Positions 32,499 to 59,118 of a stretch of DNA of 64,000 bases are shown piece after piece. Position 1 is the first letter of the stretch; each line of letters begins with the position of its first letter. The notes beneath the pieces were generated by a model that was not told where the DNA came from, ran no database searches, and was given only the letters and a program-made list of their open reading frames with translations. Location: the NCBI GenBank assembly GCA_963665665.1, contig OY762428.1, positions 5,152,001 through 5,216,000 of the forward strand. Reading direction: 5' to 3'. Made by a program: the position numbers and the translations under genes. The DNA comes from Candidatus Kapaibacterium sp. (lineage in GTDB: Bacteria > Bacteroidota > Ignavibacteria > Kapaibacteriales > UBA2268).

Positions 32499-32588
32499 TT
32501 TTCAGGTTTTTTCTTCAAAATATTAAACCATCTGAGTGGTTACGATTAATTCATCCTGAAATTTTTTATTTCCAAATAACTTTTCAGC

Positions 32589-32619
32589 AACCTTCCGAAG
32601 GGATCAGCTTCGGAAGGTT
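32589..32619 (-). terminator. 12-bp stem hairpin just downstream of hydA
   Basis: AACCTTCCGAAG-GGATCAG-CTTCGGAAGGTT; no clear U-tract. Confidence 0.5.
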
Positions 32620-32633
32620 ATATAAATATAATT

Positions 32634-34637: not shown

Positions 34638-34639
34638 CT

Positions 34640-37046: not shown

Positions 37047-37071
37047 ATCTTCTCCAAATTGTTTGTATCAT

Positions 37072-39390: not shown

Positions 39391-39696
39391 ATGAATTTGA
39401 ACAGCTCCCAAATAATTAAAAAGGTAGAAGAATTTTCAGAAAAAATTCGACTTAACGGAGTTGAAAAACTTGGATTATTCGGATCTTATGCCAGGGATGA
39501 GGCAGATTACGAAAGCGATATCGACTTTATTGTTCAATTTGTTTCAGGTCAAAAATCTTATAAAAACCTGTCTGATTTATATTTCCTTCTTGAGGATTTA
39601 TTCGGAAAAAGGATTGAAATTGTAACGCCTGAAGGCATTAAACCATTGTTTTTTGAGAATATAAAAAATGATATAATTTATGCCAAGATCAATTAA
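39391..39696 (+). CDS. Minimal nucleotidyltransferase (MNT) antitoxin
   Basis: GLFGSYARDE...SDIDF, LEDLFGKRIEIV. Confidence 0.92.
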   Translation: MNLNSSQIIKKVEEFSEKIRLNGVEKLGLFGSYARDEADYESDIDFIVQFVSGQKSYKNLSDLYFLLEDLFGKRIEIVTPEGIKPLFFENIKNDIIYAKIN

Positions 39697-40015
39697 ACTA
39701 CTTATTGAAGATATCCTGGAGGAAATTTTTTTTCTTGAGAGAAATTCAAATATCAACGAAATAGAATTTTTGGATAATGAATTGCTCCAAAGAGCATTTG
39801 TAAGAAGTTTGGAGGTTATCGGGGAGGCTACAAAGAAAATTCCGATTTCAATTAAGGAACAATATCCGAAAATTCAATGGAGAGAAATGGCCGGAATAAG
39901 AGATATATTGATAAATGATTATTCAGGAATAGATTACTCTATTGTCTGGAATGTAGTAGAGGAATATATTCCGCTTTTGAAAGAAAAATTAACAAAAATT
40001 GAGATTGATGAGTAA
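39680..40015 (+). CDS. DUF86/HEPN (HepT-like) toxin, catalytic motif altered
   Basis: RSLEVIGEA..I, PKIQWREMAGIRDILINDY; overlaps MNT. Confidence 0.88.
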   Translation: MPRSIKLLIEDILEEIFFLERNSNINEIEFLDNELLQRAFVRSLEVIGEATKKIPISIKEQYPKIQWREMAGIRDILINDYSGIDYSIVWNVVEEYIPLLKEKLTKIEIDE

Positions 40016-40844: not shown

Positions 40845-42149
40845 TCAAAAAGGGTGATCCACGAACATTTGAATTTCTGTTGATTCCGCTCCTTTTCCAA
40901 CGTCAACTCTAATTACAATACCGTCCATGAAAAATCTTATTCCGCCGCCAACAGACCACTGTAAATCTTTGTGAAGAGTTGATAATTTCCATTCCGGGGC
41001 TACTCTTCCTACATCGGCAAAGGCAACTACCTGGAAAAAGTCTATCCCGATTTTTCGGGTAAAATCCCAGTATTCCATGGGATTCCATTTCAGGTTTTGC
41101 CTGAGTTCGGCTGAATAATAGATCATAGCTTTATCAAAATATCGGAAATTTATAAATCCCCGAAGTTTTTTAAATCCGCCAAGGTTTACACCTGCAAAGA
41201 ACTGCGGCCTTTTATATTCAATGTATTCGCTTCCGTCCTGAAGCGTTGTCCTGCTTTTTATATCATACCAGGAAGGCGTATCCATAGTATAAAAATTCAG
41301 GGCTAATACCCTCGGCGCTTCTCCTGATTCTTTATCATAAACAGGAATATACCATCTCAGGTCGGCCTTCCATGCACTGAACTCGCTGTTCGAACCCAGT
41401 GCACCCCAATCATCAAGTAATGCGAATTTAAAATAATTTCCGCATGTCGGATTAAAGAAGTAGTCCATATTTTCCCAGGTTAAGCCATATTCTAACCCGA
41501 ATGTAACTGGTTTCAATTTCACCCCGTTATCTGTTTCCAGGTTGTTATTTCTGTAGAAAGCTTTTACGTTGATAAAAGTCCGGCCGCTTTTAATCGGATT
41601 AATAAAATTATGCGCGCCGGTTTCACCTGATATCAGAATGCCTTTGTCAAATTTGTAGTTTGTGAATGGATTTTTTCCATCGCCGATAGGGAGGAGGTAT
41701 TTCAAAGTGAATTCATACCATTGGTCTGTTCCGTCCATAACAATATAGGAATCAGCCCTAGAATCGTTTGAACCGGCCGGAGGATCGTCAGGGCTTTTAG
41801 CAACAGCGTAGGACTTTACATTTTTTACTTTGCCGGCGTAAAGGTCCGGGCGAAAAAAAAGTCTTGGAAAAAATGGAAATTGAAATTCTTCAAGCTGAAG
41901 GTAACCATAATAAGTTCCAAGAGTGGAAACTATACCGCCAGCTTTCAAAAGAGTCTGTTCCTGGGCAAATCCCTTGTATCCGACAAAACCTCCGAAAGCC
42001 CAGTCAATAGAAGCATTGTAAAATGCAAAGGGCAGCATGACGAATGAAGGTTCTTTCTTAGAATTTAAACTGTCGCTGTCAGCTATAAGTAATGATTTTG
42101 CAAATAATATTATTACGATAAACGCGATATATTTTTTTAAATAATGCAT
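40845..42149 (-). CDS. Omp85/BamA-TamA-family beta-barrel outer-membrane protein (no POTRA evident)
   Basis: Signal peptide, LGGFKKLRGF..RY loop motif, FADVGRV, SVGGGIRF, terminal HPF. Confidence 0.78.
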   Translation of the reverse strand: MHYLKKYIAFIVIILFAKSLLIADSDSLNSKKEPSFVMLPFAFYNASIDWAFGGFVGYKGFAQEQTLLKAGGIVSTLGTYYGYLQLEEFQFPFFPRLFFRPDLYAGKVKNVKSYAVAKSPDDPPAGSNDSRADSYIVMDGTDQWYEFTLKYLLPIGDGKNPFTNYKFDKGILISGETGAHNFINPIKSGRTFINVKAFYRNNNLETDNGVKLKPVTFGLEYGLTWENMDYFFNPTCGNYFKFALLDDWGALGSNSEFSAWKADLRWYIPVYDKESGEAPRVLALNFYTMDTPSWYDIKSRTTLQDGSEYIEYKRPQFFAGVNLGGFKKLRGFINFRYFDKAMIYYSAELRQNLKWNPMEYWDFTRKIGIDFFQVVAFADVGRVAPEWKLSTLHKDLQWSVGGGIRFFMDGIVIRVDVGKGAESTEIQMFVDHPF

Positions 42150-42152
42150 ATT

Positions 42153-44531
42153 TTACTTTTTCCTGAATAATTTTAATATCCCCGGAAGAATAACTAATGT
42201 TGCAAACCAGATCATGAATAAACCAAGGCAGGCGAAAATACCGATGGATTCAATGCCTGTGTGGTGGGCGAAAACCATACCCGAATATCCGAGAAGAGTG
42301 GTGAATGTTGCCAGTGAAAGTGGCCCTGTAAGTTCCTTCTGTGATTCGGATACATTTTTTCCCAATTCCCGCCAACGACGTATATAGTGTACTCCGCCGT
42401 CAACGCCCATTCCAAGAAGAGCGGGGATAACCACAATATTGAAGAATGATATTTTCAACCCTGTCAGCGACATAATACCAAGAGTAGCGCCGATTCCGAG
42501 TATTAAGGGTATAAGCACAAGCAGAGTGTCAACGATGGATTTATTACTGAGCCATACCAGCAATACAATAGCGGCAAATGTGGCGATACCTATCCAGGCG
42601 CTTTCGCTGAAGACGAGCCATAATAACTCTGCAAAGATCACTGTTTCACCGACCGGACCCTGAACTTTATCAGGAATATCCAGTGCGTATAAGTCGCGGG
42701 TAAATTTCATGGCGTTGCGGCCGTCTTTTCTTTCCTCTTCTGGATAGATTGTCAGCAGGTAATCATTACTGTCAAGCCCAACGAGAGAACTTTTCAAAAC
42801 ATCAGGGATTTCGTCAACGGAAGCGCATTTTTCCGGAATTTCCCATTCCCTGATTTTTTTGATTATATTCCTATATTCTTCATCCTCAACTTTATCGGCC
42901 CAGCTTCCTGAAAGTATATCTTTTATTTCTTCAATTAATTCAAGTCTTTCCTCTGCATCTTCTTCGACGGGGGCAAAATCTCTGATACTTCTTATCCTGC
43001 CTATCATAGACGAATCTTTGTTTGCCGCGTTCCTCACTTCTGCGTTAAATTTATCAAGAGCGTCTATTCCCTTAGCAAGATAAATTGCAGCCGGACTCAT
43101 TGATTTTGAAAATACTTTTCCGTGTTTTTCTCTTACCTTCAGGTAATCGCCAATTTCTGCCTTGTCGAAATTCATGTTGCTAAGATTATAATCAAAGCTG
43201 ATGGAGAATATCGAATAAATACCCAGAATCAAAGCAAGGGCGGCCAATGGAATTGAAACCCATGTTGGAAGGGTCATGGATTTTTCAGTTTTTCGGACGC
43301 CCTTACGAAATAGATTATAACGGGAAAAAATTATTAGAATGGATGGCAAAACAATATACATAGCCAGGAGAATGCACAATATTGATATTCCGGCTATGAT
43401 ACCAAATTCGGAGAATCCACGAAAACCGGAAAAAGCCAACACTGCAAGCGCCAACGCGGTCGTCAGTCCTGAAACAGTCACAGAAACACCTGTTGATTGG
43501 TATGTTATTATCAAAGCTTCCCGTACAGAATGATTTTCTAGCTCAAGAATATACCTTTTTACAAGATGTATGGAGAAATCAACCCCCATTCCAAACATTA
43601 TTAGAATAAGGAAAGAAGTAATCAGGTTAAGAGGCCCTACTGCCAGGGAGACAATAGCGAAGCCCCATATCAACCCGAATATTAAAGGAATCAGGACGGC
43701 AATCACTGGAAAAACCGCCCTGAAACCTATCACCAACAACAATATTATCAGAACTGAAGCAATTAATCCGGAAGTATTCAGGTCTCCGGTAATAGTATCC
43801 AGTTCATTTATTTTGTTTCTGTGATTGCCCCCGATACCGGTCCGGACAGAATATTTCCGTTCTGTACTTTTACAGATTGCTCCTATTTCAGAGTAAATAG
43901 TTTTAATCTTTCCTATGCTGCTTATTCCTTCAGCAGTTGGTATCATTATTCCGATAATTTTTCCGTCCCGGCTTTCGTAATATTCAGGCAGGCTAAGATA
44001 CTGCCTGATCATTACGTTCATATCCTGTTCGTTTTCAATATCATTATGAGTTTTGGGCTCATTATTATTGTCTGCATTACCCAGATCTTCGACGAAGGGA
44101 TTGGCTTTTGCCTCCCAGTCAATAGCCATATCATAAAGTGTTTCCAGGTAATCATTCGGAATCAGTGTAAAACCGTATTTACTTATAAATTCCATCGGAA
44201 ACTTTAACCTTACTTTATCAACATCGGGAAGCTTCTTAAGTTCGGCTGCTGCATAATTTGCCGCCTGAACAAGTTTATCCCGGTTTTCGGACTCAAGAAA
44301 TACAATAAAATGTCCCCTGTCGCCTATCTTATCTTCAATCAGGCTGTTATTAACAACGGATTTATTATCTTTCGGCAGCAGGCTCATCAGATTTGTATCA
44401 ATTTCCAGCTTGCTAAGTGTTAGTTCAGCAGGCGCAGTCAGAAGTAAAATCATAATCAGAGATAAAACAGGCCTTTTATAAATTGCTTTCAATATTCTTG
44501 TAACAGTTCTATCATACATCCCGTTCGGCAT
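42153..44531 (-). CDS. MMPL/RND-family lipid transporter (HpnN-like)
   Basis: Two 1+5 TM halves with GMGVDFSIHL and GMGVDGGVHY, LTTA/FTTL motifs. Confidence 0.9.
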   Translation of the reverse strand: MPNGMYDRTVTRILKAIYKRPVLSLIMILLLTAPAELTLSKLEIDTNLMSLLPKDNKSVVNNSLIEDKIGDRGHFIVFLESENRDKLVQAANYAAAELKKLPDVDKVRLKFPMEFISKYGFTLIPNDYLETLYDMAIDWEAKANPFVEDLGNADNNNEPKTHNDIENEQDMNVMIRQYLSLPEYYESRDGKIIGIMIPTAEGISSIGKIKTIYSEIGAICKSTERKYSVRTGIGGNHRNKINELDTITGDLNTSGLIASVLIILLLVIGFRAVFPVIAVLIPLIFGLIWGFAIVSLAVGPLNLITSFLILIMFGMGVDFSIHLVKRYILELENHSVREALIITYQSTGVSVTVSGLTTALALAVLAFSGFRGFSEFGIIAGISILCILLAMYIVLPSILIIFSRYNLFRKGVRKTEKSMTLPTWVSIPLAALALILGIYSIFSISFDYNLSNMNFDKAEIGDYLKVREKHGKVFSKSMSPAAIYLAKGIDALDKFNAEVRNAANKDSSMIGRIRSIRDFAPVEEDAEERLELIEEIKDILSGSWADKVEDEEYRNIIKKIREWEIPEKCASVDEIPDVLKSSLVGLDSNDYLLTIYPEEERKDGRNAMKFTRDLYALDIPDKVQGPVGETVIFAELLWLVFSESAWIGIATFAAIVLLVWLSNKSIVDTLLVLIPLILGIGATLGIMSLTGLKISFFNIVVIPALLGMGVDGGVHYIRRWRELGKNVSESQKELTGPLSLATFTTLLGYSGMVFAHHTGIESIGIFACLGLFMIWFATLVILPGILKLFRKK

Positions 44532-44548
44532 TTATTCCCCGCGAAAAA

Positions 44549-45112
44549 TTATTTCTTCAATTCTTTTAATTTGGACTTCAATCTTGATATGATTTGATCG
44601 TAGCTTTGCTTTTTGAACAATTTCCTGAATTGTTTTTTGTAATTTTTACTTGTGCTTATATCCTCTACGATATAGTTCACAATTTTCCATTTGCCTGATA
44701 TCTGTTTCATTTCGTAATTGATACTATAGCTTTTCTCTCCTGATTTAACATTAGTTTTAACAGTTGTCAGCCCGTCGTTTGTCTCTTCGCCAAGGTAACT
44801 GATGCTGTATGATGAGAAACCGGAAAGTTTATCTGCAATTGAATATTTTACCATTTCAGCAAAAACATCTTTTATATCTGCACACTGTTTGTCGCTTAAA
44901 TTCTTGCAGTATTTGTCCAGAACATCAGAGGAAATACATGAAAAGCAGGAATATTCTTCCAGTTCTTTAGCAATTTTCTCTTTGGATTTAACGCCGGATA
45001 TTTTTGAGTTTAGCGTCTTTATAATATCCGTTGCTCCGCCTCCGGCGGCATTTATCAGTGCAATTGCCGAAAAAAATATGATAATGTTAAAAATTAACTT
45101 CACTTTCATCAA
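44549..45112 (-). CDS. MlaC/Ttg2D/HpnM-family periplasmic lipid-binding protein
   Basis: Signal peptide, TVKTNV..INYEM..WKIVNYIVEDIS..NYKKQF. Confidence 0.8.
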   Translation of the reverse strand: MMKVKLIFNIIIFFSAIALINAAGGGATDIIKTLNSKISGVKSKEKIAKELEEYSCFSCISSDVLDKYCKNLSDKQCADIKDVFAEMVKYSIADKLSGFSSYSISYLGEETNDGLTTVKTNVKSGEKSYSINYEMKQISGKWKIVNYIVEDISTSKNYKKQFRKLFKKQSYDQIISRLKSKLKELKK

Positions 45113-46472
45113 TCCACCTTAAATATTTTTCGAAAGTTGTTGTTTTTGAGGCAAGGTCGGCCAGAGCCTTATGATAATCAAGTATCATAGCTATTCTCCT
45201 GCCTTTAAGTTCGTAATAGGTTTTGTATGCCCTGATAAGCTTTTCAGCATCGCCAAATCCCATTTGCCAGTTATCCAGACCAAGAGCAAGCCACTTCTCC
45301 GCATTTTTAATGGATTCGTCAACTTTTGTTATCAGGCTGAAAATTCCGGAAGCATCGTTAAAAGACTGAATAACTTCAATTTTTACTTTTGTTTTGAGAA
45401 GTTCAAGATTCTCTTCCTGAACTTTAAGTTCCAATTTGTCAGAAGCGGCTTTGTCGCCGGAAGTAAGGAAATTTAAATTCCATGACATTCCGAGAAAAGC
45501 GCCCAGGTTCAGGTAATTGAAACTGTCGTACACAAATGGATTTGTCTGATCGTCCCTCCCCGGGGCGTACGCATACTGAACGCCTCCGGCCAGATATATC
45601 ATTGGCAGTGTTGAATTTCCCGCAAGCTGTGCCTTTTTTCTTAAAGCTTTAATTCCGGATTCGAGAGCTTTTATATCACTTCTTTCGGATAAAGCGGTTT
45701 CAATAGCAATCTGCCGGGCTGTGGCGGACGTATCCATTCGGGGAATTAATTCCATATCAAAAGAAATACTGTCACATCCGGTGATTTCTTTGAAAGCCAT
45801 TCTAACTGTTTGGTAGCCGTTTTTAGCTGTGGCAGAGACACTTTCAATCATGAAGTAATTGGATTTTACTTCCAAGAGGTCGCTTTCATCCAGGTCGCTG
45901 TCCTCTTTTTCAATTTCCTTATTTACTTCTTCAGTCAGCTTGGCAAAATTTGATTCAAGTTCATCAGCCAATTTAACAGAGTTTTTCAGAACGTTAACAG
46001 TCCAGTATGATTTTGCAATAATGTAACGGAATTTGTCAAGTTCAATTTCATTCATCCTGTCGCGGAGGTTGATTCCTTCTGTTGCCAAATCTTCGGCATT
46101 GTCGATTCTTCCAAAAGTATAAATCGGCTGCATAAATGTAAGTTCTGCCCTGACAAATGGCCCCCAGGAGTCAAGGTCTGTCTGTTTATCCTGCGAGAAA
46201 AAAACATCGCCCCTGGCATCGGGAACAATTCCGCCATTGATGTTCATTTTAATCTCAGGCAGGAATTTCATATCTTCAACCGTTCTGATATCCGTTTCAG
46301 CTAACTCTCTTTGAGCTTTGAGTTTCTCTAAAACATGAGATTCTCCGCCAAGGGCTGCCTTGACGACAGCCCTCAGTTCGTTTTGCCAAACCTTCGGTTC
46401 GGCCTTCTCTGCGGAGAAAATTTCAAGTTTGGGTTGTATTAAAAAAAATAATATAACGATTAATCTGGTCAT
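45087..46472 (-). CDS. TolC-family outer-membrane efflux protein
   Basis: Signal peptide, two OEP repeats (FLPEI..QPIYTFG; LPMIYL..MSWNL). Confidence 0.85.
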   Translation of the reverse strand: MTRLIVILFFLIQPKLEIFSAEKAEPKVWQNELRAVVKAALGGESHVLEKLKAQRELAETDIRTVEDMKFLPEIKMNINGGIVPDARGDVFFSQDKQTDLDSWGPFVRAELTFMQPIYTFGRIDNAEDLATEGINLRDRMNEIELDKFRYIIAKSYWTVNVLKNSVKLADELESNFAKLTEEVNKEIEKEDSDLDESDLLEVKSNYFMIESVSATAKNGYQTVRMAFKEITGCDSISFDMELIPRMDTSATARQIAIETALSERSDIKALESGIKALRKKAQLAGNSTLPMIYLAGGVQYAYAPGRDDQTNPFVYDSFNYLNLGAFLGMSWNLNFLTSGDKAASDKLELKVQEENLELLKTKVKIEVIQSFNDASGIFSLITKVDESIKNAEKWLALGLDNWQMGFGDAEKLIRAYKTYYELKGRRIAMILDYHKALADLASKTTTFEKYLRWIDESEVNF

Positions 46473-46515
46473 TTTATACTTTTAATATATACTAACATTT
46501 TTTAAAATGATAATA

Positions 46516-47832
46516 TTACACGCTGTGCCCATTTGAATCGAGATGAGTGATAACCTCTTCGCCCATCATTTTCCTCAAAGTGTTTTTCATCTTCATGAGC
46601 TGGATGAAAAGGTCATTTTCCGGAACCACATTTTTCTTATGCATCGGGCTTTTGAAATAGAATGAAAGCCATTCCTGAATACCTTTCATTCCGGCTCTGG
46701 ACGCGAGATCGTTCAGTAGTACAAGGTCGAGGCAAATTGGTGCTGCAAGGATAGAATCCCGGCACAGGAAATTGATCTTCAATGACATCTGGTAACCCAT
46801 CCATCCGAATATATCAATATTATCCCAGCTTTCCTTGTTGTCTCCACGAGGCGGATAATAGTTTATTCTTACTTTATGATAGTAGTTGTCGTAAAGATCA
46901 GGATAAACATCCGGCTGAATAATACTTTCGATCACTGAAAGTTTTGATTCTTCTTTTGTTTTGAATGACTCAGGATCGTCAAGAACTTCGCCATCCCTGT
47001 TGCCGAGTATATTACTCGAAAACCAGCCGTTAAGCCCAAGCATCCTGGCCTTAAGCATTGGAGCAATTACTGTTTTCAACATTGTCTGGCCGGTTTTAAA
47101 ATCCTTTCCGCAAATCGGAACTGAATTTTCAATTGCCAGTTCTTCAAGGGCCGGGACGTCAATTGTCAGGTTCGGAGCGCCGTTGATATACGGAACTCCC
47201 TCTTTGATTGCAGCCCAGGCGTATAGCATGGACGGAGAAATATCCTCGTGGTTATCCTTCATGGCCTGTTCGAAACGATGGATACTATTATGAACTTCTG
47301 ATTTACTTAGGAATACTTCCGTAGAGCCGCACCAGATAACCACGAGTCGGTCTAGCTCATTGTTTATTTTAAAATTTTGAATATCATTTCTCAGTTGCTC
47401 TGCAAGGTCATATTTTGTTGAAGCGGATTTAATATATTCGCCTTCAAGGTTATGTACGTAAGCCTGGTCGAAAACTCCGGGCATAGGTTTTATATTTTCA
47501 AGTTCGTCTTTTATATTGATATAGTCTCTTTCTTCGAGAACAGCATTGGACTGAAGAGATTCAAATAGGTTTTCATCCCGAATATCCCATCCGCCAAAAA
47601 CAATATCATCAAGGTTTGCCAGGGGTACAAAATCTTTTATCATCGGAAATTCATTGTTGATCCTTGCGCCTATCCTGATAGTCTGCATTTGTGTTACCGA
47701 GCCGACCGGTTGAGAATAGCCCCTTCGGATAGCTATTGTACCTGCTATAAAAGTCGAGGAAACAGCACCGTTCATACCTACAACGAGAACGCCGAGCTTA
47801 CCGTTTGCTTCTTTGATCTGTAACTTATCCAT
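46516..47832 (-). CDS. ino1: myo-inositol-1(3)-phosphate synthase (MIPS)
   Basis: FGGWDI, INGAPN, GKDFKTGQT, NILGNRDG, GDNKESWD, CRDSILAAP, LSFYFKSP. Confidence 0.96.
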   Translation of the reverse strand: MDKLQIKEANGKLGVLVVGMNGAVSSTFIAGTIAIRRGYSQPVGSVTQMQTIRIGARINNEFPMIKDFVPLANLDDIVFGGWDIRDENLFESLQSNAVLEERDYINIKDELENIKPMPGVFDQAYVHNLEGEYIKSASTKYDLAEQLRNDIQNFKINNELDRLVVIWCGSTEVFLSKSEVHNSIHRFEQAMKDNHEDISPSMLYAWAAIKEGVPYINGAPNLTIDVPALEELAIENSVPICGKDFKTGQTMLKTVIAPMLKARMLGLNGWFSSNILGNRDGEVLDDPESFKTKEESKLSVIESIIQPDVYPDLYDNYYHKVRINYYPPRGDNKESWDNIDIFGWMGYQMSLKINFLCRDSILAAPICLDLVLLNDLASRAGMKGIQEWLSFYFKSPMHKKNVVPENDLFIQLMKMKNTLRKMMGEEVITHLDSNGHSV

Positions 47833-47855
47833 TTCATGCCCTTCAATAAATCTTA

Positions 47856-48560
47856 TTAATCCATGTTTATAATTACATTGGTTATTTCTGAAAAATCACT
47901 GATGATGATATCATAATCAGGTTGGTCATCATCATTTACCCACGATTTGTTTTTTAGCCAAATTGATCTTGCACCCAGTTCGATTGCAGGAGCAATATCA
48001 TTTTTATATGAATCTCCAATAATTACAACTTCATTATTTTCAAGCTTCAAAGCATCTATACCCATTTGCCATATTGTCTTATCAGGCTTCCTGATATTGA
48101 TTTCACCCGAATCGATCAAGCAGTCAATTTGATATAATACTTCGAATTCCTGCATTATTGATTTCAGGTTTCCATAGAAATTTGATACAATCCCAATTTT
48201 ATAAAATTGTTTTAATATCGACAGATATTCAATATTTCCGGCTATGGTTTTTGATACTTTATGGAAAATATTATTACAAATATTTCTCCCCGTTTTATCA
48301 GAAATCTGAATACTTGTATTCTTTCTTAGATAATTTATTTGAGAATAGATTTTCAAGCCTAATGTTTCGGAAAGCCTCGTATCCGGAGGGATAATTATCT
48401 TAGCCATTCTTCTTTCTGCAAAGATGTATGCTTCTCTGAATATATCTTCGTCAATATCCAAATCAAACTCTTTGTAGGATTGTAAAAAATACCTGAACCA
48501 GTGAATACCACCGGTATCGATAGTTCCTCCGAAATCGAACAATAATCCTTTTATACTCAT
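47856..48560 (-). CDS. HAD-family hydrolase
   Basis: FDFGGTIDT, IVSNFYGN, RKPD, IGDSYKND. Confidence 0.9.
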   Translation of the reverse strand: MSIKGLLFDFGGTIDTGGIHWFRYFLQSYKEFDLDIDEDIFREAYIFAERRMAKIIIPPDTRLSETLGLKIYSQINYLRKNTSIQISDKTGRNICNNIFHKVSKTIAGNIEYLSILKQFYKIGIVSNFYGNLKSIMQEFEVLYQIDCLIDSGEINIRKPDKTIWQMGIDALKLENNEVVIIGDSYKNDIAPAIELGARSIWLKNKSWVNDDDQPDYDIIISDFSEITNVIINMD

Positions 48561-49549
48561 GCCCCGGTCCTTTTGTTAAGAATTGGTATTATCAGAAATC
48601 CTGCTGCTATCCAGAATATTTCCCGGATACGTGTTGTAAGTGAAACAAATAATCCCAGGCCCGGAGCAAGGCTTAATGTTGCAATTATAAATGTAAGGCT
48701 GCCTTCACGGACTCCAAGCTGCATCGGTATGAAAAATATCATATTAGCTATCAGCGATGATGCCGCTGAAATATATATTGCGTCAGCAAAACTTATATTA
48801 ATTCCAATTGCTTTCAGAATCAGGAAAAACTCAAAAGAAGCAACAATTCTGGAAACTAATTCAAAGCCCAGTGATTTATAAAATCCACTTTTGTCATTTT
48901 GATAAAAATCAGATATTAATACATCAATTTCTTCAAGCTTTGCTATATAATGTTTTTCCGAAAGGATTTTTCCTATAAGCGGCAACTGTACAAGGATTTT
49001 GTGCAATTTGATAATAAATCCCTTTTTGAACAGGGACATAAAAATTGTCAAAAGCAATCCTGTAAAAATTACAGAGCAACAGATAATCATAAGGTTGTCG
49101 CCTTCAAGCCCGAGGCTTGCCAGCATGATAATCAGGCCAAGAATCCAGAACCATACATGTGAATACATGTGCATCATTGAATACAGAAGAACTGCCGCAG
49201 CAGATCTTGAGCCGGTAATTTCTTTTCCGAGAACAGACATTCTGTATGGCTCGCCGCCAAGGCTGACAAAAGGCGTTACATAATTAATTGCATACCCTGA
49301 AATTGTTAACCCGAGTATTTTTGAAAATGAAACTTTGTCTGATTTTGAATTAATAATAAATTTCCACGACATGGCATTCAGAAGATAAACCGCAAGCCAT
49401 ACGAATAATATCGGAATAAAATACCAGGATACTTGCGAAATTTTTTCTAACATCAGCACTATTCCGTAATTATTTATCATAAGCGCAATGGCGATTAATC
49501 CGGCTAAATAAAGAAGGATTTTGAAATATTTTTTTAGTACAGCCTTCAT
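48557..49549 (-). CDS. Lysylphosphatidylglycerol-synthase TM domain (flippase-like, UPF0104) protein
   Basis: NYVTPFVSLGGEPYR, IPMQLGVREG, RIREIFW; multiple TM. Confidence 0.85.
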   Translation of the reverse strand: MKAVLKKYFKILLYLAGLIAIALMINNYGIVLMLEKISQVSWYFIPILFVWLAVYLLNAMSWKFIINSKSDKVSFSKILGLTISGYAINYVTPFVSLGGEPYRMSVLGKEITGSRSAAAVLLYSMMHMYSHVWFWILGLIIMLASLGLEGDNLMIICCSVIFTGLLLTIFMSLFKKGFIIKLHKILVQLPLIGKILSEKHYIAKLEEIDVLISDFYQNDKSGFYKSLGFELVSRIVASFEFFLILKAIGINISFADAIYISAASSLIANMIFFIPMQLGVREGSLTFIIATLSLAPGLGLFVSLTTRIREIFWIAAGFLIIPILNKRTGA

Positions 49550-50457
49550 TACTCAGCAAACTCCCAAATCAGTTTCCTGCTCATACTTTCATGCCTTAAA
49601 ACCATATATATCAAAAGTAGATTCAATACCGTCAGTTCAAACCACAGGTAAATCCAAACATTGCCGAGAAGAACAGAGATGAATAATGTGATCATCCTTG
49701 TATTGGTAGTAAGGATATTTGTATATTTCATTAGTGGTTTACTCAGTTCACGGTATCTTTCGCGCATGTAAGCCGGTATATTGTCTCCGTATTTTCCAAC
49801 AACAAAATCTCTGAAAATTCCGTATTTGCGGGCAATAAATTGCTGCTGGCTAACATAATTAATAAACATTCTTAAATATAATTTCCTGAAAAAATCCGAC
49901 TTCCAACTAAGTGATTTGTAGTCCTCTTTAAGTTGTTTCAGGTCTTCGATATCTTTCAAGCTGTTCTTGCCGATAAATATCAGATGCTGCGTACGATAAT
50001 AATCAGCCATGGCTGCCTGGAGGGAGTGGAAAGCACCCACCATTATCATGAATAAGAATATAGCTGGAGAGTAACCTTCATTTATAAGCCTCAACATTAG
50101 GTGAACGTAAATACTAACAAACCAGAGATTGCCTGCAAATCCGTCCAGGAATCGCCCGAGTTTGGTACAGTTATTTGTCATTCTGGCAAGTTGGCCGTCG
50201 GCGCTGTCCAGCAGATTGGCAAATACCAGGCTGATAATACCGATAATATTCAAAGTCAGATCATGATAATAGAACATGTGCCCGGCAAGTATTCCCCAGA
50301 AAATGCTAATGATAGTTATCGGATTTGGCGTTAGGCCTACTTTTTTTGAAAACAATGCAATCAGGTAGCCAACCGGCCTGTAAAATATCAGGTCGAGTGT
50401 TTCTTCCGTGTCGGCCGATTTTAATGTTGATTTTAGTGTACTTTTTTGCTCTACCAT
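49549..50457 (-). CDS. CDP-alcohol phosphatidyltransferase
   Basis: TPNPIT, DSADGQLAR..GRFLDG motif. Confidence 0.9.
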   Translation of the reverse strand: MVEQKSTLKSTLKSADTEETLDLIFYRPVGYLIALFSKKVGLTPNPITIISIFWGILAGHMFYYHDLTLNIIGIISLVFANLLDSADGQLARMTNNCTKLGRFLDGFAGNLWFVSIYVHLMLRLINEGYSPAIFLFMIMVGAFHSLQAAMADYYRTQHLIFIGKNSLKDIEDLKQLKEDYKSLSWKSDFFRKLYLRMFINYVSQQQFIARKYGIFRDFVVGKYGDNIPAYMRERYRELSKPLMKYTNILTTNTRMITLFISVLLGNVWIYLWFELTVLNLLLIYMVLRHESMSRKLIWEFAE

Positions 50458-51314
50458 GTCTGTTCTTCCAGTTCAAATAATTCAAATTTCTGTGATCTGC
50501 GTTGTTCAATATTTTGAAATATAACTTTTGCTATCATTCCCGAAGCCTCTTCCCGAACAGGAGCGAAGCTGGGCCAGTCGTTGATATCTATAAAATAAAT
50601 CTCTCCGTCCGGTGTAATTATCGCATCACCCCCGAAAAATTTAAGGTCAAACAAGTTTGCGCAACGAAATATTTCATTTTTAAGCTTACTTTTGCTGAAA
50701 GGATATTCGTTATGGCCATTTGCGTAATACCAGTAGATGTAATCTGCTTCAGGGACGGCATAAAATTTAATCTCATCGCCGCCAATATGCTCCATAACCG
50801 AGGCTTTGCTGATTCCCCTTCTCATGAACTCTTTCAGAATATTACCTAACTCGGAGGGGGAATAAACTTTCACAATATCTTCGCGGTGATTTATATGCCC
50901 TTCCCTTTTTACCCAAAGTTTATTTTTCGAGAATGCGGATGCTATCCTTTCGGCATATTTGTAATCTTCAGTACTCACGGTAATATTAACCGGGGTGGAA
51001 ATATTATTTCTGGTGAGTATGTCCATCATGTTTTCCCTGTGACAGTTCCTTACACCCCTGACCGAGTTAAGAATCATGGAATTATTATTCTCTAGATTTT
51101 TAAGATTTTTCAAAGCGTTTGAACTTCTTGCCATCGTAAAAATTACATCTTCTGTAATATTTATTTTATCTAAATCATTTTCATCATAATAGTTTACTAT
51201 TGTACCCATATTTTTAAGTTTTTCGCCTGTTAGCTGGAGTATAATACTGTCGTTATCCACGTGGTTGGGTGAGAACCTTGTAGCCCTTCTGATAGCAGCG
51301 ACACTTTTTATCAT
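50451..51314 (-). CDS. ATP-grasp-like protein of unknown function
   Basis: WVKR, EHIGGDEIKFY, FFGGDAI..YFIDINDWPSF. Confidence 0.7.
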   Translation of the reverse strand: MIKSVAAIRRATRFSPNHVDNDSIILQLTGEKLKNMGTIVNYYDENDLDKINITEDVIFTMARSSNALKNLKNLENNNSMILNSVRGVRNCHRENMMDILTRNNISTPVNITVSTEDYKYAERIASAFSKNKLWVKREGHINHREDIVKVYSPSELGNILKEFMRRGISKASVMEHIGGDEIKFYAVPEADYIYWYYANGHNEYPFSKSKLKNEIFRCANLFDLKFFGGDAIITPDGEIYFIDINDWPSFAPVREEASGMIAKVIFQNIEQRRSQKFELFELEEQTW

Positions 51315-51334
51315 ATACTCGCCTTCCAAATAGT

Positions 51335-51778
51335 TTAATAATTTATCTTAATGACCTGTTCAACTTGTTTGTCCTTTACTTCAAAACACGCGTCGTCGAA
51401 GTCCGGAATACCCATTCCGAGGAATGCTTTTGCATTGTTCGAGCAAGCCCAGCCTTCGCTGGGAAGGCCAAGAAAAGTCTTATCCATTTTCTTGTTTCCG
51501 TTTTCATCATGATGAACTGTAAAAGCATACTTGCCTGGTTTAAGCCCTGCGAAAAGGAATTCGGCCTGCATATCATCAAGATCGAAATCATTAATATATT
51601 TCATAGCTTTTTTTGAATTAGTAGGATAGCCGTCCTCGCTATTAAAAATGTGGCAAACCACCCAGCCGTTTGAATTTCTGAGCCCGTTCACCACGACATG
51701 AACCGAGCCGGTTGAACCAGCGCCGGTGTCAGACGGAGCTATGAGCAGCAACACAAATAAATATATTATTATATTCAT
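51335..51778 (-). CDS. DUF2141-family exported protein
   Basis: Signal peptide, PGKYAFTVHHDENGNKKMD..GLPSEGWACSNN. Confidence 0.88.
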   Translation of the reverse strand: MNIIIYLFVLLLIAPSDTGAGSTGSVHVVVNGLRNSNGWVVCHIFNSEDGYPTNSKKAMKYINDFDLDDMQAEFLFAGLKPGKYAFTVHHDENGNKKMDKTFLGLPSEGWACSNNAKAFLGMGIPDFDDACFEVKDKQVEQVIKINY

Positions 51779-52476
51779 TTCTCATCCTTTAAAAATTTTT
51801 CGGCTTTATCAATATCTTTAATATGGTCAACATCAATTATCTTTGAAAATTCAAAGGCTTTAACTTTAAGTTGTCTTTCAAGAAGCATTCTCTGAAAATT
51901 TCTGAGCATGTGAATTCCTTTGTCAAAACATTCATTCAGAACATCAATAACTGTCGGAGCGAAGTAATATATTCCTCCGGATACAAGGCTTGTATCTTCC
52001 CGATCATCCGGGAATGCCGTTATATCATGGAATTGATTGGTTCTTATATATAGCGGCTTTTCGTCGTCGATATAGGGGGTTGCAGCCATAACAGCATCAT
52101 AATCGTCAAGATTTCTTGCGTAATTGATGTAACTGCTAAACTCTTTTTCCCTGAAAACGGTGTCAACAGTAAACAGGCAGAAATAATCGTCTTTCAGCCA
52201 ATCTCTCATTTCATACAGGCTGTGCATAGAACCGGGTGTATTCTTAACGAGAAGATTGATATTCATTCCATTTGTTATTTTTTTAATGTGTTTCTCCAGG
52301 GTTTCCGAATTTCCATTGATAATAATTGAAAGGCTGTTATAATCAAATTTTGATATTAGTTGTATCAGTCTTTCTATCATCGGAATGCCGTTGAGTTTTA
52401 CTAAACCTTTTGGTTTATTAAGGCCTTCATTGTTGAGCCTGGAACCCAACCCCGCTGCGAGAATGGCGAAATTCAT
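51775..52476 (-). CDS. NTP-transferase (sugar/inositol-phosphate cytidylyltransferase-like)
   Basis: AILAAGLGSRL...PKGL, TVDTVF, IDVDHIKDI; start at MNFAIL. Confidence 0.88.
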   Translation of the reverse strand: MNFAILAAGLGSRLNNEGLNKPKGLVKLNGIPMIERLIQLISKFDYNSLSIIINGNSETLEKHIKKITNGMNINLLVKNTPGSMHSLYEMRDWLKDDYFCLFTVDTVFREKEFSSYINYARNLDDYDAVMAATPYIDDEKPLYIRTNQFHDITAFPDDREDTSLVSGGIYYFAPTVIDVLNECFDKGIHMLRNFQRMLLERQLKVKAFEFSKIIDVDHIKDIDKAEKFLKDEK

Positions 52477-52760
52477 ATTTAACCTGTTAATATATCTAAA
52501 TGATTTAACATAAAAGATTAACCAATTGGTTAATCTTTTTTTTTTCAATTTACAATTTTTTTTTAATACCAGCAAAACATTTTTAACTGAATGGTTAAAT
52601 AATATTTATAATATATGTATTACTTTCACTTAAAACATATAATAAACTACATAGGTATAAATAGTATACATAAGAGTATAAAAATTTCTGTCCGATAAAA
52701 ATTATTAACGGATTTTCACTATTCCGACTATGCAGAATATTTTATTTTATTACCTGACTT

Positions 52761-53333
52761 CTATCTTTTAACCAAGCCATTCATGGTAATATCCATGAAA
52801 ACTTTTGAAATTCGTTCAAAATCGGAATCTGAATGATCACCCATGATCAATGCGTCAAAAAAGACGTGAGTTAAAATTATATAAGCATCAATATCGATAT
52901 CTTCTCTTATAATGCCATCTTTTTGGCAATCGTCCATAAAATTTTTGAATATTTCATGGCTGACTTCATCTTTCTGTTTCAATTCTTTCTTAAGCAAAGG
53001 ATATTCTATTGACACATCCTTTGCAAATCTTCTCGTAAAACCACTGAATCGCTTCGGAATATCGTTGAACAATATTTCAAGTTTTTCTTTATTAGTTTTG
53101 TTGCTTGAAATAATTTTTTCAATAGCTGCTTTATTATCTAACATGCCGCTCAGAAAAAGTCTGGATATCAGATTTTCCTTGCTGCCTATAATCGCATATA
53201 ATGTTTTCTTTGCAAGACCACTGTTCCTGGCAAGATCGTCCATATTCCAGCCTTTTATGCCATATTTCTCGATTAATTCCAAAGCGTTCTCATAAACAAC
53301 TTCTTCGTATTCTTTGTTATTAACTTTTTTCAT
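52761..53333 (-). CDS. TetR/AcrR-family regulator
   Basis: KYGIKGWNMDDLARNSGLAKKTLY..SKENL; start at MKKV. Confidence 0.88.
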   Translation of the reverse strand: MKKVNNKEYEEVVYENALELIEKYGIKGWNMDDLARNSGLAKKTLYAIIGSKENLISRLFLSGMLDNKAAIEKIISSNKTNKEKLEILFNDIPKRFSGFTRRFAKDVSIEYPLLKKELKQKDEVSHEIFKNFMDDCQKDGIIREDIDIDAYIILTHVFFDALIMGDHSDSDFERISKVFMDITMNGLVKR

Positions 53334-53454
53334 CCTTCTCGCACCTTGCTTATACTGTCTCGTTTCATTTAGTGTAAGATACGAATTTTCCATAGTAACT
53401 CCAAAAAAGTATTTTTATTTTAAATTATTTTCAAATCATTAAAAAAAATTCTTT

Positions 53455-54798
53455 TCAATACCTGGCTGTTGCAACTAAATAATTAGCCTGCTTGATTTTA
53501 TAGTTAGCTTTTGCATCTGTAAGATCATTAAGCGTAGACTGGTGAATTGCCCTGGCTTCAAGGAGGTCGGAAGTAGTTACTATTCCGGCATCGTAATTGT
53601 CCTGTATTACTTTCAGGTGTTCTTCTGCCTGAAGTACTGATGCTTCGGCAACTTTTATTTGCTGAAAACTATCGAACAGGTCGCGGTATGATTTTTCAAT
53701 CTGCAGGGCAATCAGTTCGGATTTTTCCTCCAGATTATTTTTTGCAATTTCAATTTCAATTTCTTTTTCCTCGATTTCATGCGAACCTCCCCACCAGTCA
53801 GAGATTGGGACACTAAGGTTGACCATTCCTATTAAATTTGAACTTTCCGTATCCATAATATCAAGATAAAGCGCCTGTGCCCCAATGCTTAATTGCGGAT
53901 AATATTCTCCGGCCTGAATATCTTTCTGTAAATTCCCGGCTTCAACAGCCATGTTCAGCAGCTGTATTTCATTTCTTGATTTAAGTGCTCCGGGATGGTC
54001 TGTTTTTATTGTTTCAGGAGCAGGGGTGTCAAATACCGGGGTGCTGATATCGAATTCTTCTGAATATTCAACCCCGATATGCTGTGCAAGGCTCATTTTC
54101 AGTAGTGTTGTACCGTTTGTTAATTTAATTTTGTTTGCATTTATTTTGCTTATTTCAAGCTGAACTTTCAGCAGGTCGCTTTTTTGTACAAGTCCTGCGT
54201 GCAATGCTGTTTGAACATCGGATTCAAGTGTTTTCAATAGTTTTTCATAACTCAGCAGCGTGTTCATCTTTTCTTCCAGGGACCTTATAGTCCAGAAGTA
54301 ATTCTCAGTTCGGAGCAGGACTTCATCAATAGTCAGCAGAGATTTCTTCTTTTTGATATCAATAGCAAGGCCTGCAAGTTTGTTGGCATTTCTTATACGT
54401 CCTCCTGCATATATTGGCTGAATTATATTAACAGCAGCAAGATTTGTGTAGTCAAGCAGCTCCAGTTTCATACCCGGAAAATAAGCAAATTCTGTTGCAG
54501 TACGCAAGTTAGCCGGGTTGCCGTCGTAAACCGGTAGGTTCATTTCGGGTACTTCAGCTTCAAGTAACGGGTCCATAGCTTTCATTACAGTTGCATTTGC
54601 ACTTATATTGGGATAATATTTCGTGTATGCCGATTTTTTAACTTCTTCAGAAGCTTTTATTTCGTAATTACTTTCCCTGATCTTTTTATTGTTTTCCAAT
54701 GCATATTTTTTGCATATTTCCAGGCTTAATTCTTCTGCAGAAATATTTACCGCCATAGATACTATTAACACTAAAAAAACTGATATTTTATTAAACAT
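53455..54798 (-). CDS. TolC-family outer-membrane efflux protein
   Basis: LSLEICKKYALENN, YYPNIS, QPIYAGG, YDAGIVTTSDLLEA. Confidence 0.92.
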   Translation of the reverse strand: MFNKISVFLVLIVSMAVNISAEELSLEICKKYALENNKKIRESNYEIKASEEVKKSAYTKYYPNISANATVMKAMDPLLEAEVPEMNLPVYDGNPANLRTATEFAYFPGMKLELLDYTNLAAVNIIQPIYAGGRIRNANKLAGLAIDIKKKKSLLTIDEVLLRTENYFWTIRSLEEKMNTLLSYEKLLKTLESDVQTALHAGLVQKSDLLKVQLEISKINANKIKLTNGTTLLKMSLAQHIGVEYSEEFDISTPVFDTPAPETIKTDHPGALKSRNEIQLLNMAVEAGNLQKDIQAGEYYPQLSIGAQALYLDIMDTESSNLIGMVNLSVPISDWWGGSHEIEEKEIEIEIAKNNLEEKSELIALQIEKSYRDLFDSFQQIKVAEASVLQAEEHLKVIQDNYDAGIVTTSDLLEARAIHQSTLNDLTDAKANYKIKQANYLVATARY

Positions 54799-54814
54799 TT
54801 TTATTCCTTGCCTA

Positions 54815-57901: not shown

Positions 57902-57931
57902 TTCTCGCTTCTTTTTTCCAAATAAATTATT

Positions 57932-58966: not shown

Positions 58967-59118
58967 GAAAATAGTCCTTCGTAAATCGTATATAAAAATA
59001 TTATTCAAATTTTATCGATAATCAGAAAATATCAAAAATCTTTTAGCTGAATTAGTGTAAATTACTTAAAGAATATAATACTATATTAGTATTTTAGTCG
59101 AATTAAGTACAAAAAAAA

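What the first reader, a model, noticed from the sequence alone, without database searches (positions are those of the whole stretch)
40845..52476. 11-gene operon coupling inositol-lipid synthesis to a complete trans-envelope transport set (TolC-MlaC-MMPL-Omp85)
Seen: NTP-transferase, DUF2141, ATP-grasp-like, CDP-alcohol transferase, LPG-synthase-TM flippase-like, HAD, MIPS, TolC, MlaC-like, MMPL and Omp85 barrel are co-oriented with overlaps or gaps of 43 nt or less. Established: MIPS with NTP-transferase, CDP-alcohol transferase and HAD resembles the CDP-inositol logic of di-myo-inositol-phosphate synthesis and the proposed alternative inositol-lipid cluster of Bacteroidetes. MMPL plus MlaC-like pairs (HpnN/HpnM) traffic hopanoids. 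Inference: a dedicated pathway that makes an inositol-containing lipid, flips it and delivers it to the outer membrane or beyond. I am not aware of such an inositol-lipid export machine being characterised.
Basis: partly seen in the sequence, partly recalled or inferred. Interest (0 to 1): 0.75.

Follow-up and report, generated by a model that had tools for sequence, protein, structure and literature searches.

The report
Inositol-lipid genes beside a lipid exporter
This gene cluster joins a proposed bacterial route for making inositol lipids to a three-part exporter that many bacterial groups keep beside different lipid-making genes, suggesting an undescribed way to move special lipids to the outer membrane.

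Summary
The 11 co-oriented genes exist as described but form two modules plus an accessory gene. Module 1 (nucleotidyltransferase, ATP-grasp, CDP-alcohol transferase, flippase-like, HAD, MIPS) is the proposed 'alternative' Bacteroidetes inositol-lipid cluster; four Bacteroidales records carry its core without transport genes. Module 2, TolC-MlaC-MMPL, is portable: 51 of 79 loci around related MMPLs hold both partners. Its neighbours are inositol/CDP-alcohol genes (26 of 79), ceramide-type genes, PKS/NRPS or polysaccharide genes. The 10-gene order recurs in 4 of 79, one clade. Omp85 is in 0 of 79, so it is accessory. Two new leads: a predicted MMPL-MlaC complex (0.62, best control 0.00; mark reached by 116 of 157 solved and 2 of 215 mismatched pairs), and the ATP-grasp gene, an unannotated cluster member with a RimK-like fold but ITPK-type active-site motifs. 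Best reading: an HpnN/HpnM-like exporter with TolC as outer-membrane partner, here carrying an inositol phospholipid. Nothing is shown experimentally. New variant of a known kind.

The parts
52512..52539 (.). Perfect 28-bp palindrome (core AACC-N4-GGTT) 36 bp upstream of the first gene; candidate operator or hairpin
   Evidence: Only loop-free palindrome with arms of 10 or more in the window; same core between MIPS and tolC in L001, L002, L003, L008, i.e. 4 of 39 tolC upstream regions, one clade. Function inferred.
51775..52476 (-). Nucleotidyltransferase (233 aa), predicted CTP:inositol-phosphate cytidylyltransferase
   Evidence: PF00483 E 1.8e-13; best PDB hits are cytidylyltransferases 1tzf and 1jyk; 40-50% identical to Bacteroidales cluster genes; below the IPCT/DIPPS cut-off, 49.7 versus 580
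51335..51778 (-). DUF2141 small protein with N-terminal hydrophobic segment, probably exported; role unknown
   Evidence: PF09912 E 6.9e-29; in 4 of 79 loci; absent from the four Bacteroidales loci; a homologue lies in a Roseomonas locus of Caulobacter sphingolipid type
50451..51314 (-). ATP-grasp protein (287 aa): RimK-like fold, ITPK-type motifs; candidate inositol-phosphate kinase
   Evidence: K183 in 120 of 121 and D243 in 118 of 121 family members; fused to nucleotidyltransferase in 10 of 11 long homologues scanned, one also with HAD and one also with CDP-alcohol transferase
49549..50457 (-). CDP-alcohol phosphotransferase with non-canonical signature (fourth Asp missing)
   Evidence: PF01066 E 8.8e-13; motif scan; 38-53% identical to Bacteroidales homologues, which have Asp one position later
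48557..49549 (-). LPG_synthase_TM / HpnL-like membrane protein, putative flippase
   Evidence: PF03706 E 8.4e-27; TIGR00374 flippase-like domain above cut-off, HpnL below; about 7 hydrophobic segments
47856..48560 (-). Soluble HAD-IA hydrolase, predicted phosphatase
   Evidence: PF13419 E 7e-15; no hydrophobic segment
46516..47832 (-). myo-Inositol-phosphate synthase (MIPS)
   Evidence: PF07994 E 1.2e-106; PDB 7nwr E 2e-175; 52-61% identical to Bacteroidales MIPS
45087..46472 (-). TolC-family outer-membrane protein of the conserved triad
   Evidence: PF02321, two stretches, E 4.2e-32; relative near MMPL in 51 of 79 loci
44549..45109 (-). MlaC/HpnM-like periplasmic lipid carrier
   Evidence: PF05494 E 7.6e-27; profile hits MlaC/Ttg2D structures; near MMPL in 55 of 79 loci; predicted to bind MMPL
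42153..44531 (-). MMPL/HpnN-like RND inner-membrane transporter
   Evidence: PF03176 E 3.8e-33; closest structures HpnN 5khn, 6wu0; D318, D711, T744 conserved in 51, 53 and 52 of 53 aligned rows; below HpnN and BstA cut-offs
40845..42149 (-). POTRA-less Omp85-fold barrel; accessory, not part of the conserved module
   Evidence: Model pLDDT 92.6, strands start at residue 35; best match BamA 9ccg Z 25.0, rmsd 3.7, 305 aligned; 0 of 79 loci

Best explanation
Two modules fused into one operon. Synthesis, in the cytoplasm and inner membrane: MIPS turns glucose-6-phosphate into inositol 3-phosphate (family function established). The ATP-grasp protein and the HAD adjust the phosphorylation of the inositol (inferred). 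The nucleotidyltransferase makes a CDP-inositol (inferred). The CDP-alcohol transferase moves phospho-inositol onto a lipid alcohol, diacylglycerol or a ceramide (inferred; acceptor unknown). The flippase-like protein exposes the lipid to the periplasmic leaflet (inferred). Export: the proton-driven MMPL lifts the lipid from the inner membrane and hands it to the MlaC-like carrier, which docks on a conserved periplasmic Asn-Pro-Phe loop of the MMPL (model-supported, not shown). The carrier crosses the periplasm and unloads at the TolC-family protein, which takes the place of the MlaA-like HpnS of the hopanoid system or BstC of the sterol system (inferred from synteny only). The triad is a portable exporter recruited to several lipid chemistries; in this genome its likely cargo is the inositol lipid. 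Omp85 and DUF2141 are accessory.
For: Tight co-orientation. Same 10-gene order in 4 of 79 loci. TolC and MlaC relatives both present near MMPL in 51 of 79 loci, and in 36 of the 44 loci with at least 20 kb of sequence, across Acidobacteriota, Aminicenantes, Spirochaetota, Latescibacterota, Calditrichota, Balneolota and Kapabacteria-like genomes. MIPS, IPCT-like or CDP-alcohol transferase genes in 26 of 79 (22 of 44), on about nine separate branches of a FastTree tree. In Latescibacterota an IPCT/CDP-alcohol fusion sits between tolC and mlaC in 7 of 8 loci; the eighth contig begins at the fusion. Only 2 of the 44 long loci lacked all scored lipid or surface-glycan genes. Predicted MMPL-MlaC complex: score 0.62, best of 3 controls 0.00; the mark was reached by 116 of 157 solved complexes and 2 of 215 mismatched pairs (counts hold only roughly with my alignments); runs agree in at least 92% of contacts, partner pLDDT at least 83. 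The MMPL interface (133-151) includes P145, invariant in 53 of 53 rows. Heaver 2022 (PMC9246714, passages) found PI-dihydroceramide in B. vulgatus and P. veroralis, which lack the B. thetaiotaomicron-type genes and have this cluster type. HpnN-HpnM-HpnS and BstABC are precedents for RND + carrier + outer-membrane partner (PMC12324291, PMC11713862, passages).
Against: No lipid, transcript or activity data. Four of four Bacteroidales clusters lack the triad within 9 kb, so making the lipid does not need a linked triad. 53 of 79 triad-type loci show no inositol/CDP-alcohol gene within the fetched flank (35 of the 79 are under 20 kb). In the four nearest full loci MIPS and tolC are 173-433 nt apart with a palindrome between them and a TetR after MMPL, suggesting separate control. 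The CDP-alcohol transferase lacks the fourth signature Asp and has Asn one place later in the window and those four loci; Asp-to-Asn at that site nearly abolished activity of mycobacterial PIP synthase (PMC4634129, passage). The alternative pathway is itself unconfirmed in print. TolC as a lipid acceptor has no support here beyond synteny. The survey was seeded on MMPL, capped at the best 80 of 580 confirmed matches, and 35 of the 78 tree rows are one Balneolota-dominated clade.
Confidence: 0.55

Rival explanations
1. The triad exports a lipid backbone class (for example sphingolipids or other lipids made elsewhere in the genome) regardless of head group; the inositol genes are one of several head-group cassettes that landed next to it, and the inositol lipid is not its specific cargo.
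For: Seven Acidobacteriota loci have tolC-mlaC followed by an SPT-like gene, with MMPL divergent. Five carry a full-length 35-38% relative of the gene in the bCerS position of a Caulobacter-type sphingolipid locus, six an epimerase-type reductase. L057 joins SPT-like and CDP-alcohol genes. An MmpL gene downstream of Myxococcus spt was noted in bioRxiv 10.64898/2026.04.12.717747 (passage). A DUF2141 homologue lies in the Roseomonas sphingolipid-type locus.
Against: No SPT-like gene among the window ORFs scanned; the rest of the genome could not be searched. The SPT-like hit scores below the NCBIfam cut-off (436 versus 640). PKS and polysaccharide contexts show the triad is not sphingolipid-only either.
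Confidence: 0.25
2. CDP-inositol feeds a surface glycan or lipid-anchored polymer, and the triad moves the anchor or a subunit.
For: In Balneolaceae-type loci, MIPS and IPCT-like genes sit with Wzx, TagF-like, sulfotransferase and sometimes Wzi genes, upstream of MMPL and often between mlaC and MMPL; 24 of 79 loci have Wzx, Wzi or TagF. Inositol was detected in B. thetaiotaomicron capsule.
Against: This operon has no glycosyltransferase, Wzx or TagF and does have a membrane CDP-alcohol transferase.
Confidence: 0.08
3. TolC and MMPL work as an efflux or import channel for a small amphiphile, unrelated to membrane lipid delivery.
For: TolC proteins normally act as exit ducts (established). NRPS/PKS neighbours in 3 of 79 loci.
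Against: No membrane-fusion adaptor in the operon; the MMPL is HpnN-like, not AcrB-like; the MlaC-like carrier is the most constant partner (55 of 79) and is predicted to dock on MMPL.
Confidence: 0.07
4. The synthesis genes make a soluble compatible solute such as di-myo-inositol phosphate.
For: MIPS + nucleotidyltransferase + CDP-alcohol transferase + phosphatase is the same enzyme logic; weak IPCT/DIPPS hits.
Against: Scores far below the IPCT/DIPPS cut-off (49.7 and 26 versus 580); no IPCT structure among the five PDB hits; closest characterised context is lipid-producing Bacteroidales; flippase-like and lipid-carrier genes are embedded.
Confidence: 0.05

Closest known systems
Putative alternative inositol-lipid cluster of Bacteroides vulgatus/Prevotella (Heaver 2022, PMC9246714)
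   Same: MIPS + NTP transferase + CDP-alcohol transferase + HAD + LPG-synthase-like gene; same core order as four Bacteroidales records at 30-61% identity.
   Different: Adds DUF2141, TolC, MlaC-like, MMPL and Omp85. The paper's main text has no occurrence of 'grasp' or 'transport'. The HAD is soluble, which fits a phosphatase better than the AUR1-like role proposed there (inference).
Hopanoid transport HpnN-HpnM-HpnS (PMC12324291)
   Same: HpnN-like RND plus MlaC-like carrier, plus an HpnL-like membrane protein nearby.
   Different: All below family cut-offs; TolC-family instead of MlaA-like outer partner ('TolC' does not occur in that paper's main text); no hopanoid genes in the operon.
Sterol transport BstABC of Methylococcus (PMC11713862 passages; PMC10942540 listing only)
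   Same: MMPL-family inner-membrane transporter, periplasmic carrier and outer-membrane partner encoded beside lipid enzymes.
   Different: BstB is PhnD-like, not MlaC-like; BstA score 194 versus cut-off 1400; different outer partner and cargo.
ITPK1/ITPK4 inositol-phosphate kinases, including Lokiarchaeum LcIKs flanking MIPS genes (PMC6900528)
   Same: ATP-grasp fold; Lys of K-F-Y and the D-x-N-x-x-P-S-F motif align with AtITPK4; encoded beside MIPS.
   Different: Whole fold and profile are closer to RimK (Z 23.2 versus 20.0); the window protein does not match PF05770; bacterial; fused to nucleotidyltransferases.
CDP-inositol route of Rhodothermus marinus (IPCT + BEPIS; seen only as cited in PMC4587543)
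   Same: MIPS, cytidylyltransferase and CDP-alcohol transferase in an operon making an inositol lipid from CDP-inositol.
   Different: No direct sequence comparison was possible; here an ATP-grasp, HAD, flippase-like gene and exporter are added.

Membership tests
Alternative Bacteroidetes inositol-lipid cluster | NTP transferase, CDP-alcohol transferase and HAD beside MIPS, no BT_1522/1523/1525-type genes | tested here: met
   (BT1523 model 27 versus cut-off 350); definition
Alternative Bacteroidetes inositol-lipid cluster | Full-length homology and order shared with Bacteroidales clusters | tested here: met
   Four records, 30-61% identity; the B. vulgatus proteins themselves were not available
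Alternative Bacteroidetes inositol-lipid cluster | Production of PI-DAG or PI-dihydroceramide | not testable with these tools
   Needs lipidomics
CDP-alcohol phosphotransferases (canonical) | Signature D1xxD2GxxAR...GxxxD3xxxD4 | tested here: not met
   D1-D3 present, D4 is Gly followed by Asn; Pfam cut-off is met; signature
IPCT/DIPPS (di-myo-inositol phosphate) | Score above NF041135 cut-off | tested here: not met
   49.7 and 26 bits versus 580; the model is of the bifunctional protein, so separate halves are penalised
HpnN hopanoid transporter | Score above TIGR03480 / NF052374 cut-off | tested here: not met
   276 versus 751.85; 139.4 versus 1100
HpnN hopanoid transporter | RND/MMPL two-repeat topology with conserved membrane Asp residues | tested here: met
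   Two MMPL stretches; D318 and D711 conserved; their role in proton relay is recalled, not tested
HpnN-HpnM-HpnS system | MlaA-like outer-membrane lipoprotein and hopanoid genes in the neighbourhood | tested here: not met
   None among the operon or scanned window ORFs; HpnM 45.6 versus 160.1; rest of genome not searched
BstABC sterol transport | BstA equivalog with PhnD-like BstB | tested here: not met
   193.8 versus 1400; carrier is MlaC-fold
Mla pathway | MlaFEDB ABC transporter and MlaA beside mlaC | tested here: not met
   Absent from the operon
Tripartite RND-MFP-TolC efflux pump | Membrane-fusion adaptor gene and AcrB-type permease | tested here: not met
   None in the operon; a separate complete pump lies at 53455-59008, whose adaptor could in principle be shared
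ITPK1 kinases (PF05770) | Pfam family match | tested here: not met
   Window protein no match at E 0.1; 11 of 121 relatives match weakly, best 0.0036
ITPK1 kinases (PF05770) | Lys in the K-F/V-Y strand and D-x-N-x-x-P metal motif | tested here: met
   Aligned with AtITPK4 7pup (the 12-row profile was enriched for PF05770-matching rows, so its E-values are biased); conservation
ITPK1 kinases (PF05770) | Inositol-phosphate contacts H167 and R212 of the human enzyme | tested here: inconclusive
   Named; the displayed alignments did not cover them. D146 is near-invariant about ten residues after K136, which may differ from ITPK1
ITPK1 kinases (PF05770) | Kinase activity on inositol phosphates | not testable with these tools
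   Needs assay
RimK/LysX amide ligases | Overall ATP-grasp fold | tested here: met
   Z 23.2, rmsd 2.5, 247 aligned
RimK/LysX amide ligases | Arg in D-I-R and Glu in E-x-N | tested here: not met
   Lys in 120 of 121 and Asp in 118 of 121 at the aligned columns
BamA/TamA insertases | POTRA domains before an Omp85 barrel | tested here: not met
   Barrel begins right after the signal region; BamA 24.5 versus 297, Omp85_fam 61.7 versus 200; barrel fold itself matches

The most novel reading that the evidence does not exclude
TolC-MlaC-MMPL is a widespread, undescribed inner-to-outer-membrane lipid highway, neither Lpt nor Mla, that moves inositol lipids and sphingolipids in several diderm phyla, with a TolC channel acting as lipid acceptor without an adaptor. 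The ATP-grasp gene is a bacterial ITPK-type inositol-phosphate kinase that, with the HAD, shifts the phosphate from the 3- to the 1-position so that the CDP-inositol route yields eukaryote-like D-1-linked phosphatidylinositol, also in gut Bacteroidales.
Probability: 0.25. Interest if true: 0.85.

Novelty: new variant of a known kind. Interest (0 to 1): 0.62.

Why it matters
How inositol lipids and sphingolipids reach the outer membrane outside the Caulobacter-type Lpt paralogues is stated as open in a 2026 preprint, which points to an MmpL beside Myxococcus spt as a lead (passage). This locus and its relatives supply a concrete three-protein candidate, a predicted docking loop to mutate, and natural variants with different cargo to test specificity. 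Separately, the ATP-grasp gene sits in the gut Bacteroidales cluster as a 'hypothetical protein'. If it is an inositol-phosphate kinase, it fills a gap in the proposed pathway and extends such kinases to bacteria; the papers read describe them in eukaryotes and Asgard archaea.

Tried and rejected
Omp85 as a core component: 0 of 79 loci by phmmer and by the 116-sequence profile; two plasmid-collection homologues have none of the other ten genes within 8 kb; nine or more unnamed neighbour families (16 tested) showed no profile similarity to it. Weak support the other way: proteins related to Omp85, MMPL and the ATP-grasp share a longest-contig length of 63,905, and Omp85 and MMPL share 114,553, which suggests co-location but was not verified. 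Promoter/terminator scan: uninformative. A five-sequence C-terminal profile of the ATP-grasp ranked AtITPK4 first but at E 0.33, not significant. ESM Atlas: nearest clusters unnamed; RimK-type and Asgard ITPK clusters tie at 0.95-0.96. Foldseek ranked D-Ala ligases and ArgX first, ITPK1 at rank 50. No MMPL relative in the plasmid collection at E 1e-20. The window's TetR genes did not match the TetR of the four nearest loci. The IQ-TREE run did not finish; the FastTree tree has several long-branch warnings, so lineage counts are approximate. Two other DUF2141 neighbourhoods were not sphingolipid-like. Cluster-member names could not be retrieved, and metagenome and viral contigs were not available, so uncultured relatives with Omp85 stayed unchecked. 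TolC-MlaC binding was not modelled (trimer exceeds the size limit; one job only).
Full report
VERDICT. The 11-gene run is real, but it is better read as two modules and an accessory gene than as one dedicated machine. The synthesis half is a known though unproven cluster type. The transport half, TolC-MlaC-MMPL, is a conserved, portable triad that I did not find described. It most likely exports special lipids to the outer membrane, here an inositol lipid. All function is inferred.

OBSERVATION. Eleven minus-strand ORFs run from 52476 to 40845 with junctions of -23 to 43 nt. Ten domain labels pass Pfam cut-offs. The eleventh, the ATP-grasp, needed a profile and a model. The host is probably of the Bacteroidota/Chlorobiota group: the window encodes a T9SS-sorted protein, and the nearest MMPL relatives (49-50% identity) come from genomes labelled Kapabacteria or Chlorobiota.

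SYNTHESIS MODULE. Heaver 2022 (PMC9246714; abstract and passages; supplements not read) proposed that an NTP transferase, a CDP-alcohol transferase and a HAD beside MIPS make inositol lipids through CDP-inositol, and left it unconfirmed. A search with the ATP-grasp protein found four Bacteroidales records. All four carry nucleotidyltransferase, ATP-grasp, CDP-alcohol transferase and HAD in this order; two also have the flippase-like gene and three have MIPS within 9 kb; identities are 30-61%. None has TolC, MlaC, MMPL, Omp85 or DUF2141 in that span. So this operon belongs to that cluster type by gene content.

THE ATP-GRASP GENE. It has 857 relatives at E 0.001 among 50%-identity representatives. 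Of 11 longer relatives scanned, 10 are fused to a nucleotidyltransferase, one of these also to a HAD and one also to a CDP-alcohol transferase, which ties it to the pathway. Its fold is closest to RimK (Z 23.2, rmsd 2.5, 247 aligned); ITPK1 and PPIP5K2 follow at Z 20.0. At the active site it differs from RimK: Lys replaces the Arg of D-I-R and Asp replaces the Glu of E-x-N, and both motifs align letter for letter with Arabidopsis ITPK4 (K-F-Y; D-x-N-x-x-P-S-F). These residues are kept in 120 and 118 of 121 rows. It fails Pfam membership of the ITPK family, and two ITPK1 substrate contacts could not be checked. Asgard ITPK genes flank MIPS genes, and ITPK1 acts on inositol monophosphate but not free inositol (PMC6900528; passages and section 6). 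A kinase also makes chemical sense (own knowledge and inference): MIPS gives inositol 3-phosphate, so a direct CDP route would link the lipid at D-3, whereas a 1-kinase plus a phosphatase would give the usual D-1 link. I put an inositol-phosphate kinase role at about 0.5.

A CAVEAT ON THE TRANSFERASE. Its signature lacks the fourth Asp. The window and the four nearest loci have Gly then Asn; the four Bacteroidales have Gly then Asp; the triple fusion has Gly then Glu. That Asp is the proposed base, and Asp-to-Asn nearly abolished mycobacterial PIP synthase activity (PMC4634129, passages). The enzyme may use another mechanism or acceptor; this lowers confidence in the product.

TRANSPORT MODULE. 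A scan of GTDB genomes seeded on the MMPL alignment kept the best 80 of 580 confirmed matches, giving 79 loci with up to 10 kb flanks; 44 hold at least 20 kb. TolC and MlaC relatives are both present in 51 of 79 and 36 of 44; flank limits make these lower bounds. Neighbours vary: MIPS 12 of 79, IPCT-like nucleotidyltransferase 24, CDP-alcohol transferase 18, any of these 26; SPT-like 8; PKS/NRPS 3; Wzx, Wzi or TagF 24; ATP-grasp 4; none of the scored classes 20 of 79 but only 2 of 44. Labels come from clustering and family scans of 71 cluster representatives and 97 of 167 listed further neighbours. The full 10-gene order occurs in L001, L002, L003 and L008, one clade. Inositol or CDP-alcohol genes accompany the MMPL on about nine branches (FastTree, long-branch warnings). 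In Latescibacterota an IPCT/CDP-alcohol fusion lies between tolC and mlaC. In seven Acidobacteriota loci the triad adjoins an SPT-like gene; five have a 35-38% full-length match to the gene that, in a Roseomonas locus, occupies the position of Caulobacter bCerS next to lptF/lptG paralogues (that this gene is bCerS is recalled and inferred from order). One database protein fuses this MMPL to a PgpA domain (P0179), and L009 has PAP2 and GtrA genes after MMPL, both echoing the B. thetaiotaomicron-type cluster. The triad is therefore lipid-associated but not inositol-exclusive.

MMPL-MlaC MODEL. The complex scored 0.62 against a best control of 0.00; this mark was reached by 116 of 157 solved complexes and 2 of 215 mismatched pairs (roughly applicable, as my own alignments were used). 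Runs agree in at least 92% of contacts and the partner's pLDDT is at least 83. MMPL residues 133-151 and 535-547 touch carrier residues 86-94 and 146-164. P145 is invariant in 53 of 53 rows and F146 is Phe or Leu in 50 of 53. The PDB sequence searches listed HpnN and MlaC-fold chains with no title naming such a pair, but MlaC-MlaD complexes are known (recalled), so partial memory cannot be excluded. The model supports binding; it does not show it.

OMP85. It is a POTRA-less Omp85-fold barrel with 608 relatives. It is absent from all 79 loci and from the context of two plasmid-collection homologues. Matching contig lengths hint at one or two other contigs that carry it with the MMPL. I treat it as accessory.

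COMPARISON AND NOVELTY. The system works like HpnN-HpnM-HpnS (PMC12324291, passages) and BstABC (PMC11713862, passages; PMC10942540, listing only) but meets neither family's cut-offs and has a TolC-family outer partner. Searches for prior description: MMPL/MlaC/TolC/Omp85 with at least 3 of 4 terms gave 5 papers, none on this by title and abstract; sphingolipid + MMPL gave 1, which only hypothesises a Myxococcus MmpL. The library omits most subscription journals. Tripathi 2025 on extra mlaC copies and Jorge 2015 were seen only as citations and may overlap. Other papers seen as passages: PMC8024741, PMC4587543, PMC11334938, bioRxiv 10.64898/2026.10.02.756314, PMC5989583, PMC11087976. No supplements were read.

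SCORES. Best explanation 0.55; backbone-general exporter 0.25; surface polymer 0.08; efflux channel 0.07; soluble solute 0.05. Novelty: new variant of a known kind. Interest 0.62: two open questions become directly testable, but the evidence is synteny, motifs and one model.

Noticed in passing
window 52512-52539; L001 about 7917-7946 and same place in L002, L003, L008: Perfect palindromes sharing an AACC-N4-GGTT core: upstream of the whole operon here, between MIPS and tolC in the four nearest loci, which have a TetR gene after MMPL. Possible operator.
   Followed up: partly
L011, L015, L018, L019, L020, L025, L028 (about 4-12 kb in each): Acidobacteriota: tolC-mlaC-SPT-like-(bCerS-like)-reductase with divergent MMPL; a candidate ceramide synthesis and export locus.
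   Followed up: partly
L023 1655-12466; L026 1634-12358; L021 1293-12379: Aminicenantes: type I PKS or NRPS genes directly beside mlaC-MMPL, recalling mycobacterial PKS-MmpL pairs in a diderm with an MlaC-like carrier.
   Followed up: no
L030, L033, L048, L059, L073, L074, L075: Latescibacterota: bifunctional IPCT/CDP-alcohol transferase inserted between tolC and mlaC.
   Followed up: partly
L035, L041, L065, L066, L067, L068, L078: Balneolota/Rhodothermia: MIPS + IPCT-like + TagF-like + Wzx upstream of MMPL; possible inositol-phosphate surface polymer.
   Followed up: no
protein P0179; L009 12715-14153: MMPL fused to a PgpA domain; MMPL followed by PAP2 and GtrA genes, resembling parts of the B. 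thetaiotaomicron inositol cluster.
   Followed up: no
L086 2758-3279: DUF2141 homologue inside a Roseomonas locus of Caulobacter sphingolipid type; DUF2141 is also reported beside crtG and as a domain of LptZ.
   Followed up: partly
L014 7307-12457: Tandem pair of MMPL genes after tolC-mlaC in a Spirochaetota genome.
   Followed up: no
window 52761-59703: Separate complete RND pump (adaptor, AcrB-type permease, TolC) between two TetR genes, directly upstream on the same strand.
   Followed up: no
window 29460-37719: Multisubunit [FeFe]-hydrogenase cluster with a Rex-like regulator, a PAS-bearing hydrogenase and a SpoIIE-type phosphatase.
   Followed up: no
window 39391-40015: MntA/HepT-like nucleotidyltransferase-RNase pair, below NCBIfam cut-offs.
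   Followed up: no
window 15417-18128: 903-aa protein with VIT, vWA, TonB C-terminal and FKBP domains, an unusual combination.
   Followed up: no
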